The notes under the pieces are model-generated. The model searched no databases. It was not told where the DNA came from and saw nothing but the letters and a program-made list of their open reading frames with translations. A program made the translations under genes and the position numbers. Source: Escherichia phage 2G7b. Taken from it: a stretch of 47,142 nt of DNA. Every line of letters starts with the position of its first letter. Position 1 is the stretch's first letter. Below, piece after piece: positions 46,387-46,748 of this stretch. Location: the sequence record NC_049954.1, one strand, 5' to 3'.

Positions 46387-46748
46387 CTTATTATCCTGCA
46401 TTGTTAAAAACGGCAGAATCCTATGTGACAACAATTAAACGATAGTTAAATGGATTGATGAAAATTAAAACTATATAGGTGGATGCTCAGCCTATTGGAG
46501 GAGGGGGGGGGCACTCAGAATCCTGTGGAATGAAATAAACCGCTCTATCTGTCCATTACCCTTTTAGCTGCGCTGTATCGTCGCCGTATTCCCGCATTAA
46601 CCATGACCGTAGCCCGACGGGGAATTCCTTCTGCGTGAGTGTGCGGGAATAATCAAAAACGATGCACACCGGGTTTTACTGTGCTGACAGACGCAGGGTT
46701 ACCCTCATAGTCGCTTTTCCGGTGCGATGGTGGAAGAAACCGGGATGT

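What the first reader, a model, noticed from the sequence alone, without database searches (positions are those of the whole stretch)
46497..46512. Homopolymeric G tract in the non-coding region between bor and the right-end small ORF
A run of about nine G residues (GGAGGAGGGGGGGGGCAC) sits in an intergenic region. Such tracts are prone to slipped-strand length variation and to sequencing error, and could modulate an adjacent promoter.
Basis: seen in the sequence. Interest (0 to 1): 0.2.

Follow-up and report, generated by a model that had tools for sequence, protein, structure and literature searches.

The report
Variable poly-G run upstream of bor
A run of nine G's sits in the non-coding DNA upstream of a phage gene for serum resistance (bor/iss); its length differs between otherwise identical phages and prophages, but nothing indicates that it controls the gene, so it looks like an ordinary slippage-prone repeat.

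Summary
G9 lies at 46503-46511, preceded by GGAGGA, in the 362-bp gap between bor/iss (46093-46386, -) and a YlcI/DUF3950 ORF (46749-46943, -). It is the longest homopolymer in the window, but a 9-G run is not beyond chance (0.23 expected).

The notable feature is length polymorphism. In 118 homologous loci the tract is G5 to G10, and match lengths in complete E. coli genomes imply G11. 56% of locus pairs with identical +-500-bp flanks differ in tract length. Length also tracks flank haplotype, so much of the variation is inherited.

A regulatory role is not supported. The likely bor promoter is a PhoP box (46436-46452) set 12 nt upstream of a -10 hexamer, conserved in lambda, K-12 borD, phage 21 and ColV iss. 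The tract lies 51 nt further upstream. Lambda and K-12 lack the whole spacer, ColV iss lacks the tract, and phage 21 and ST131 prophages carry an interrupted version. One prophage class loses homology two bases before the tract.

Verdict: an ordinary hypermutable repeat in a dispensable spacer; low interest.

In passing: an adjacent ~180-nt conserved element (46569-46745), probably a structured RNA, has no Rfam match.

The parts
46503..46511 (+). G9 homopolymer (C9 on the bor-coding strand); the polymorphic tract
   Evidence: It is G5-G10 in 118 homologous loci. Match lengths in complete E. coli genomes imply G7-G11.
46497..46502 (+). GGAGGA purine lead-in. It is conserved in all bor-linked variants. 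AR_0114-type prophages lose homology inside it.
   Evidence: In one search, about 10 of 60 sampled genomes align only to query positions 1-61, that is, up to 46501.
46441..46565 (.). 125-bp bor-linked upstream spacer that carries the tract. It is absent from lambda and K-12 DLP12, which have 55 unrelated bases here.
   Evidence: BLAST of the window against lambda; alignments. The segment 46441-46568 occurs in 2377 of 5426 complete E. coli genomes.
46436..46452 (-). Predicted PhoP box CATTTA-ACTAT-CGTTTA of the bor/iss promoter
   Evidence: The pattern BRTTTAN5BGTTTA matches only twice in the window, against 0.05 expected. The aligned site in lambda and K-12 borD is TGTTTA-GGGTT-TGTTTA. The consensus and the 12-nt spacing rule come from PMC3335776. 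borD is PhoP-activated (PMC5740661, PMC11495068).
46418..46423 (-). Predicted -10 hexamer TAGGAT (TACGAT in lambda and K-12), 12 nt downstream of the PhoP box
   Evidence: Read from the sequence. CACATAxGATTCTGC is invariant across five bor/iss upstream regions. This is an inference; no transcription start site data were available.
46394..46397 (-). bor ribosome-binding site AGGA
   Evidence: Sequence. The equivalent site is annotated as RBS in the phage 434 record.
46093..46386 (-). bor/iss lipoprotein gene (97 aa)
   Evidence: Pfam Lambda_Bor, E=3.7e-30. RefSeq names the homologues 'increased serum survival lipoprotein Iss'.
46749..46943 (-).
   Evidence: Pfam DUF3950, E=2e-20; RefSeq annotation.
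46446..46514 (-). 22-aa GTG ORF (MPPPSSNRLS...) that begins at the tract. Its reading frame is not conserved, so it is probably not a gene.
   Evidence: Tract lengths fall in all three frames, 58/37/19.
46569..46745 (+). Neighbouring conserved ~180-nt element, predicted as three hairpins in the sense of late transcription. It is not part of the tract but fills the rest of the 'non-coding' gap.
   Evidence: Present in 430 phage records. Alignment and RNAalifold. Strand asymmetry: -36.0 kcal/mol on plus against -18.8 on minus. Pair counts. No Rfam match.

Best explanation
The tract is a slippage-prone mononucleotide repeat in a dispensable spacer far upstream of the bor/iss moron. It probably arose in one lineage of that spacer from an interrupted sequence like the phage-21/ST131 form GGAGGA-AGTTGGGGA-CAC. 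It has since expanded and contracted by replication slippage, from G5 to at least G10 and probably G11.

It lies about 92-100 nt upstream of the predicted bor transcription start, outside the PhoP-box/-10 core that bor, borD and iss alleles share. On the plus strand it is only untranslated late-operon read-through sequence. Its length is therefore probably neutral or nearly so.

Shown: the tract, its polymorphism, its absence from other bor/iss alleles, and the conserved PhoP-box motif. Inferred: slippage as the mechanism, the position of the transcription start, and neutrality.
For: Length is the only difference among near-identical phages: G9 in the window, G8 in PhiR68_2, G7 in Turner and ev207, G6 in 434, ev243, PhiR34_1 and mEp332. 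In 118 loci the counts are G5:4, G6:51, G7:30, G8:15, G9:7, G10:7 and GGGAGG:4. 56% of pairs with identical +-500-bp flanks differ in tract length.

Length associates with flank haplotype (chi-square p=1.4e-8). Related strain pairs share the same length. So the variation is inherited rather than random noise.

Lengths fall in all three frames and no conserved ORF spans the tract. The tract is absent from lambda and K-12 borD, which is PhoP-activated. It is also absent from ColV iss and interrupted in phage 21 and ST131 prophages. One prophage class loses homology at 46501, two bases before the tract.

The PhoP-box motif and -10 are conserved downstream of the tract in all five bor/iss types. 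There is no promoter or terminator consensus and no Rfam hit at the tract.
Against: No expression data exist for any tract length, so a quantitative effect on bor/iss is not excluded. Such an effect could act through helical phasing of an upstream site, through the perfect GGTTTA half-site at 46536-46541, or through read-through from ylcI.

Weak hexamer pairs do bracket the tract: CTGAGT-N18-TAGGCT on the minus strand and TTGGAG-N15-CAGAAT on the plus strand. Tract length would set their spacer.

Some of the apparent polymorphism may be homopolymer error in 454, ONT or PacBio assemblies. The PhoP promoter assignment for this allele rests on motif conservation only.
Confidence: 0.7

Rival explanations
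1. Contingency locus. Tract length sets the spacer of a promoter or the phasing of an activator site, so slippage switches or tunes expression of the serum-resistance lipoprotein Bor/Iss. On the plus strand it could instead tune expression of the neighbouring structured element.
For: The tract is a polymorphic G/C homopolymer upstream of an outer-membrane lipoprotein gene. Weak hexamer pairs flank it, and their spacing would be 15-19 nt for G6-G10 on the minus strand and 15-17 nt for G9-G11 on the plus strand. A perfect PhoP half-site GGTTTA lies 24 nt beyond the tract.
Against: The flanking hexamers match only 3/6 plus 3-4/6 and score within the top ~0.2% of all positions, which amounts to about one such site per 100 nt. 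The consensus scan found nothing at the tract. The conserved PhoP-box/-10 core lies 51 nt downstream and is shared by alleles that lack the tract. The modal lengths G6-G7 would give non-functional spacers of 15-16 nt on the minus strand and 12-13 nt on the plus strand. Related strains keep the same length, which does not suggest rapid switching.
Confidence: 0.1
2. Artefact: the G9 count in this window, and much of the spread among database entries, is homopolymer miscalling during sequencing or assembly.
For: Homopolymers of 8 or more bases are error-prone on 454, ONT and PacBio platforms (general knowledge). Many compared records are draft or long-read assemblies of unknown quality.
Against: Exact G9 with 100% identity over 421 bp recurs in at least 21 independent complete genomes, and G10 in at least 12. 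Length correlates with flank haplotype (p=1.4e-8). Related strain pairs agree with each other (PKF11/PKF4, UTAK-3/UTAK-18, S1-ESP/S1-SRB). The two 434 records agree, as do PhiR11_1 and its derivative. Random error would not give this pattern.
Confidence: 0.1
3. The tract belongs to a short phase-variable upstream ORF. This is the 22-aa GTG ORF at 46446-46514 (-), preceded by AGGA and beginning MPPP. Alternatively, the C-rich minus-strand RNA acts as a Rho-loading site that limits read-through from ylcI into bor.
For: An AGGA lies 6 nt upstream of the GTG that abuts the C-run. The minus-strand RNA here is C-rich.
Against: Tract lengths occupy all three frames, 58/37/19. G7 and G8 truncate the ORF to 6-8 codons. 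The ORF is absent from the lambda, ColV and AR_0114-type contexts. There is no evidence for transcription across it, and the Rho idea was not tested.
Confidence: 0.05

Closest known systems
Phase-variable homopolymeric promoter tracts of Neisseria (porA poly-G, opc poly-C) and similar contingency loci in Haemophilus and Campylobacter (from general knowledge)
   Same: A G/C mononucleotide run upstream of a surface or outer-membrane protein gene, with length polymorphism between isolates attributable to slipped-strand mispairing.
   Different: In those systems the tract lies between the -35 and -10 elements or inside the ORF, and switching has been shown experimentally. Here it lies about 51 nt upstream of the predicted activator box. 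No credible hexamers bracket it. Functional alleles exist without it. No switching data exist. The host is mismatch-repair-proficient E. coli, which rarely uses such tracts.
lambda bor / K-12 DLP12 borD / plasmid iss moron with PhoP-activated promoter
   Same: The gene is a Lambda_Bor family lipoprotein in the same position after Rz/Rz1 and in the same orientation. The PhoP-box-like direct repeat, -10 and RBS are conserved.
   Different: Lambda and K-12 carry a canonical TGTTTA-N5-TGTTTA box and lack the 125-bp spacer with the tract. The window has the weaker CATTTA-N5-CGTTTA box plus the spacer. ColV iss has the spacer but not the tract.
Mosaic module junctions of lambdoid phages
   Same: The tract sits at the distal edge of the bor moron. 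One class of prophages loses homology at 46501, and lambda diverges at 46440.
   Different: A junction explains where the sequence sits but not why it is a homopolymer. The run itself is best explained by slippage after the junction formed.

Membership tests
Simple-sequence contingency locus (phase-variable homopolymer) | Uninterrupted mononucleotide run long enough to slip (about 7 nt or more) | tested here: met
   G9 at 46503-46511.
Simple-sequence contingency locus (phase-variable homopolymer) | Length polymorphism among closely related genomes | tested here: met
   G5-G10 in 118 loci. 56% of pairs with identical +-500-bp flanks differ in tract length. Match lengths in complete genomes imply G7-G11.
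Simple-sequence contingency locus (phase-variable homopolymer) | Tract placed inside an ORF, or between -35 and -10 or at a regulator site, so that length changes switch expression | tested here: not met
   No conserved ORF spans it. No consensus promoter lies at it. Only background-level hexamers flank it. The conserved PhoP-box/-10 core lies 51 nt away.
Simple-sequence contingency locus (phase-variable homopolymer) | Within-culture length heterogeneity and reversible on/off or graded expression | not testable with these tools
   No reads or expression data are available.
PhoP-activated promoter, architecture I (Zwir et al. 2012, PMC3335776) | Direct repeat resembling (T/G)GTTTA-N5-(T/G)GTTTA, oriented towards the gene | tested here: met
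   CATTTA-ACTAT-CGTTTA at 46452-46436 (-). The relaxed pattern hits twice in the window against 0.05 expected. The first repeat fits the (T/C)ATTTA submotif and the second fits (C/T/G)GTTTA.
PhoP-activated promoter, architecture I (Zwir et al. 2012, PMC3335776) | Box located 11-12 nt upstream of a -10 hexamer | tested here: met
   12 nt (ATTGTTGTCACA) separate the box from TAGGAT. Lambda and K-12 have the same spacing to TACGAT.
PhoP-activated promoter, architecture I (Zwir et al. 2012, PMC3335776) | PhoP-dependent transcription shown experimentally | not testable with these tools
   Reported for K-12 borD (PMC5740661, PMC11495068), not for this allele.
Lambda_Bor / Iss lipoprotein | Match to Pfam PF06291 above the gathering score, with a lipoprotein signal ending in Cys | tested here: met
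   104.3 bits against a cutoff of 25. The N-terminus reads MKKMLFSAALAMLITGC.
Any described RNA family (Rfam 15) | Covariance-model match in 45800-47142 | tested here: not met
   The best E-value is 0.22, every hit is far below its gathering score, and none overlaps 46440-46750.

The most novel reading that the evidence does not exclude
The poly-G tract is a genuine contingency locus of E. coli prophages. Slippage would change the phasing between distal sites (for example the GGTTTA half-site at 46536-46541) and the PhoP-dependent core promoter, or the spacer of a cryptic promoter. Lysogen populations would then be heterogeneous for the serum-resistance lipoprotein Bor/Iss.
Probability: 0.06. 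Interest if true: 0.55.

Novelty: new member of a known kind. Interest (0 to 1): 0.15.

Why it matters
The practical value is small. The tract is a fast-evolving marker inside a prophage segment carried by about 44% of complete E. coli genomes. It is a predictable site of homopolymer miscalls, so G-count differences here should not be read as meaningful variants. If it did tune iss/bor expression, that would be an unusual case of repeat-mediated variation of a serum-resistance determinant in E. coli, but the evidence points the other way. The more useful by-products are three. First, bor/iss in this phage keeps a PhoP-type promoter. Second, the omptin moron also carries a PhoP box. Third, the rest of the 'non-coding' gap holds a widely conserved, apparently structured element that is not in Rfam.

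Tried and rejected
- Rfam scan of 45800-47142 at E<=10: nothing at the tract or in the gap.
- Consensus promoter and terminator scan: no site at the tract. My own PWM scan found only background-level pairs.
- ORF search down to 20 aa: only a 22-aa GTG ORF whose frame is not conserved. A 19-codon plus-strand GTG ORF across the tract was seen by eye; it has no Shine-Dalgarno sequence and no conserved frame.
- G-quadruplex: rejected by inspection, because there are not four runs of three or more G.
- The 37-aa minus-strand ORF (46556-46669) that some records annotate: no Pfam hit, and 1-nt indels break it in the lambda and ColV copies.
- Literature: no paper in the library mentions a bor promoter or a poly-G tract upstream of iss. 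Johnson et al. 2008 (iss evolution) and Minagawa et al. 2003 (PhoP regulon) are not held. Known prophage sRNAs (AgvB, AsxR, Pas, STnc100) lie near pR'/Q, not here.
- The genome-contig scan for the neighbouring element returned mostly lambda control-DNA contamination in unrelated genera, so it gave no cross-species diversity.
- A tract-length-specific BLAST was not attempted, because the low-complexity filter would mask the run.

Full report
**Context.** The window is a lambdoid phage genome. It ends with a lambda-type right cohesive end and is 96% identical to lambda over its last 411 bases. Its right half is closest to phages ev243, PhiR11_1 and ev207. The gene order at the right end is endolysin, Rz/Rz1, bor on the opposite strand, a 362-bp gap, a small DUF3950 (YlcI) ORF on the opposite strand, then cos. 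RefSeq names the bor homologues in E. coli chromosomes 'increased serum survival lipoprotein Iss'.

**Observation.** The sequence at 46497-46514 is GGAGGAGGGGGGGGGCAC, with nine G at 46503-46511. This is the longest homopolymer in the window; the next are one C8 and three T8. Presence alone is not remarkable, because dinucleotide shuffles give 0.23 nine-G runs per window and 16 of 100 shuffles contain one. No ORF of 25 aa or more overlaps the tract.

**Comparison with relatives.**
- A 421-bp query centred on the gap finds 23 phage records with full-length matches of 418-420 bp.
- Aligning eight of them shows that the only length difference is the G count. It is 9 in the window, 8 in PhiR68_2, 7 in Turner and ev207, and 6 in 434, ev243, PhiR34_1 and mEp332. 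Phage 21 has the interrupted form AGTTGGGGA.
- A pattern search of IMG/VR with a variable gap between the exact flanks returned 108 further loci. Over all 118 loci the tract is G5 (4), G6 (51), G7 (30), G8 (15), G9 (7), G10 (7) or GGGAGG (4).
- In complete E. coli genomes the same 421-bp query gives 100%-identical G9 copies in at least 21 genomes. It also gives matches of 422, 423, 420 and 419 bp, which imply G10, G11, G8 and G7.
- The 128-bp spacer segment around the tract occurs in 2377 of 5426 complete genomes.

**Is the variation real, and how fast is it?** Among loci whose 150 bp on each side are identical, the major haplotype holds G6, G7, G8, G9, G10 and GGGAGG. Among pairs with identical +-500-bp flanks, 56% differ in tract length. 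The tract therefore changes faster than one substitution accrues per kilobase. At the same time, tract length associates with flank haplotype: one haplotype is mostly G6 and the other mostly G7-G8 (chi-square p=1.4e-8). Related strain pairs and duplicate records also share the same length. This pattern fits an inherited, slippage-prone repeat. It does not fit random miscalling, although some contribution from homopolymer sequencing error cannot be excluded without reads.

**Where the tract sits relative to bor transcription.** On the bor-coding strand the tract is C9, 117-125 nt upstream of the bor ATG at 46386. I aligned five bor/iss upstream regions: the window, K-12 borD, lambda, phage 21 and ColV iss. 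The alignment shows an invariant core, xxTTTA-N5-xGTTTAATT followed by CACATAxGATTCTGC. In lambda and K-12 the repeat is TGTTTA-GGGTT-TGTTTA, a canonical PhoP box. In the window it is CATTTA-ACTAT-CGTTTA (46452-46436). In both cases 12 nt follow before TACGAT or TAGGAT.

This matches the 'architecture I' PhoP promoter, which has consensus (T/G)GTTTA-N5-(T/G)GTTTA with the box 12 nt upstream of the -10 hexamer. It also matches the (T/C)ATTTA submotif (PMC3335776). borD is reported as PhoP-activated in E. coli K-12 (PMC5740661; PMC11495068). A relaxed PhoP-box pattern matches only twice in the whole window against 0.05 expected. I therefore place the bor promoter at about 46452-46418, with a start near 46411. 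This is an inference from motif conservation, not a mapped start. The tract then lies about 51 nt upstream of the box, roughly -92 to -100, outside the core promoter.

**Is the tract needed?** The evidence says no.
- Lambda and K-12 DLP12 lack the whole 125-bp spacer 46441-46565 and have 55 unrelated bases there. borD, which has the lambda-type upstream region, is expressed under PhoP control.
- The ColV-plasmid iss allele has the spacer, but with TGGTAGG in place of ATTGGAGGA plus the G-run.
- Phage 21 and ST131-type prophages have AGTTGGGGA.
- In about one sixth of a rank-spread sample of E. coli genomes, homology ends at 46501, two bases before the tract. AR_0114 is an example, where an HNH-endonuclease packaging module follows.

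The tract thus lies at the ragged distal edge of the bor moron. A plausible history is that loss of AGTT and an A-to-G change in the phage-21-like form produced a G5-G6 run, which then expanded by slippage.

**Tests of a regulatory role.** The consensus scan found no promoter or terminator at the tract. A position-weight scan found two weak hexamer pairs whose spacer contains the tract. These are CTGAGT-N18-TAGGCT on the minus strand and TTGGAG-N15-CAGAAT on the plus strand. Both score within the top ~0.2% of all positions, which is background for a scan of this kind. With the modal G6-G7 their spacers would be too short.

A 22-aa GTG ORF starts at the tract on the minus strand, but tract lengths occupy all three frames at 58/37/19. 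Rfam gives nothing. I found no literature on a bor promoter or on a poly-G tract upstream of iss. A modulatory effect cannot be excluded without expression data, and I rate it at about 10%.

**Verdict on the finding.** The tract is real and polymorphic, but it is most likely an ordinary hypermutable mononucleotide repeat in a dispensable spacer. The evidence does not support promoter modulation. Interest is low.

**Noticed while working.**
1. *Conserved element.* The rest of the gap is not empty. A ~180-nt element (46569-46745) is present in 430 phage records, including lambda (46865 to about 47040), phage 21, and VT2-Sakai/933W-type, phi191, POCJ13 and ASU11 phages. In every phage record I fetched it lies between the lysis cassette or its morons and the terminase genes or cos. 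In each it has the orientation of late transcription, whatever the flanking genes are.
   - RNAalifold on 16 variants predicts three hairpins. The consensus energy is -36.0 kcal/mol on the plus strand (z=-8.1 against column shuffles) and -18.8 on the minus strand (z=-3.3).
   - 97% of pair cells are paired, and five pairs show changes on both sides. By my count from the pair table there are about 79 G-U cells and 6 A-C cells. This favours an RNA read from the plus strand.
   - The central hairpin is replaced by a different hairpin in the Sakai type.
   - The 37-aa ORF that some records annotate here has no Pfam hit and is broken by single-base indels in lambda and ColV.
   - Known prophage sRNAs map elsewhere.
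   - The support is moderate, because the 16 sequences are related and covariation is limited.
2. *Second PhoP box.* The second PhoP-box match in the window (27779-27795) lies 84 nt upstream of an omptin gene (26745-27695, -), in reverse orientation to it. This fits the reported PhoP activation of ompT.
3. *C8 run.* The C8 run at 30671-30678 is a G8 on the minus strand, 4 nt upstream of the ATG of a 63-aa ORF.
4. *Contamination.* Many 'hits' to the element in unrelated genera are lambda control-DNA contamination of assemblies.

Noticed in passing
window 46569-46745 (+): A conserved ~180-nt element fills most of the bor-ylcI gap. It is present in 430 phage records, including lambda, 21, 434-like and Stx phages. 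In every phage record fetched it lies between the lysis cassette and the terminase genes or cos, in late-transcript orientation. It is predicted as three hairpins, and the plus-strand fold is much better than the minus-strand fold (-36.0 against -18.8 kcal/mol). 97% of pair cells are paired, G-U pairs are many, and five pairs show compensatory changes. It has no Rfam match. The 37-aa ORF annotated on its minus strand is broken in lambda and ColV.
   Followed up: partly
window 27779-27795 (+), upstream of the omptin gene at 26745-27695 (-): A perfect PhoP box, TGTTTA-TATTT-TGTTTA, lies 84 nt upstream of the phage-borne omptin (OmpT-like) gene, in reverse orientation to it. With the bor box it is one of only two matches in the window (0.05 expected). 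Both outer-membrane morons may therefore be under host PhoP control.
   Followed up: partly
window 30671-30678: The second-longest G/C homopolymer is a C8, which is a G8 on the minus strand. It lies 4 nt upstream of the ATG of a 63-aa minus-strand ORF (30475-30666) next to the integrase region. It could serve as that ORF's Shine-Dalgarno sequence and is another likely slippage or miscall site.
   Followed up: no
window 46501/46502; loci L168 and L169: A class of E. coli prophages (for example AR_0114) shares bor and 115 bp upstream with the window. It then diverges at GGAGG, two bases before the G tract, into an HNH-endonuclease packaging module. This marks a mosaic junction at the edge of the bor moron.
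   Followed up: partly
loci L126-L159 (genome-contig scan): Exact matches to the lambda-type element occur in assemblies of Pseudomonas, Cohnella, Kitasatospora, Flavobacterium and others. They lie on contigs of about 48.4 kb or about 3.5 kb. These look like lambda control or spike-in DNA contaminating public assemblies, not real homologues.
   Followed up: no
window 46536-46541 (-): An isolated perfect PhoP half-site, GGTTTA, lies 24 nt beyond the tract on the bor-coding strand. It has no second repeat at the canonical spacing.
   Followed up: no
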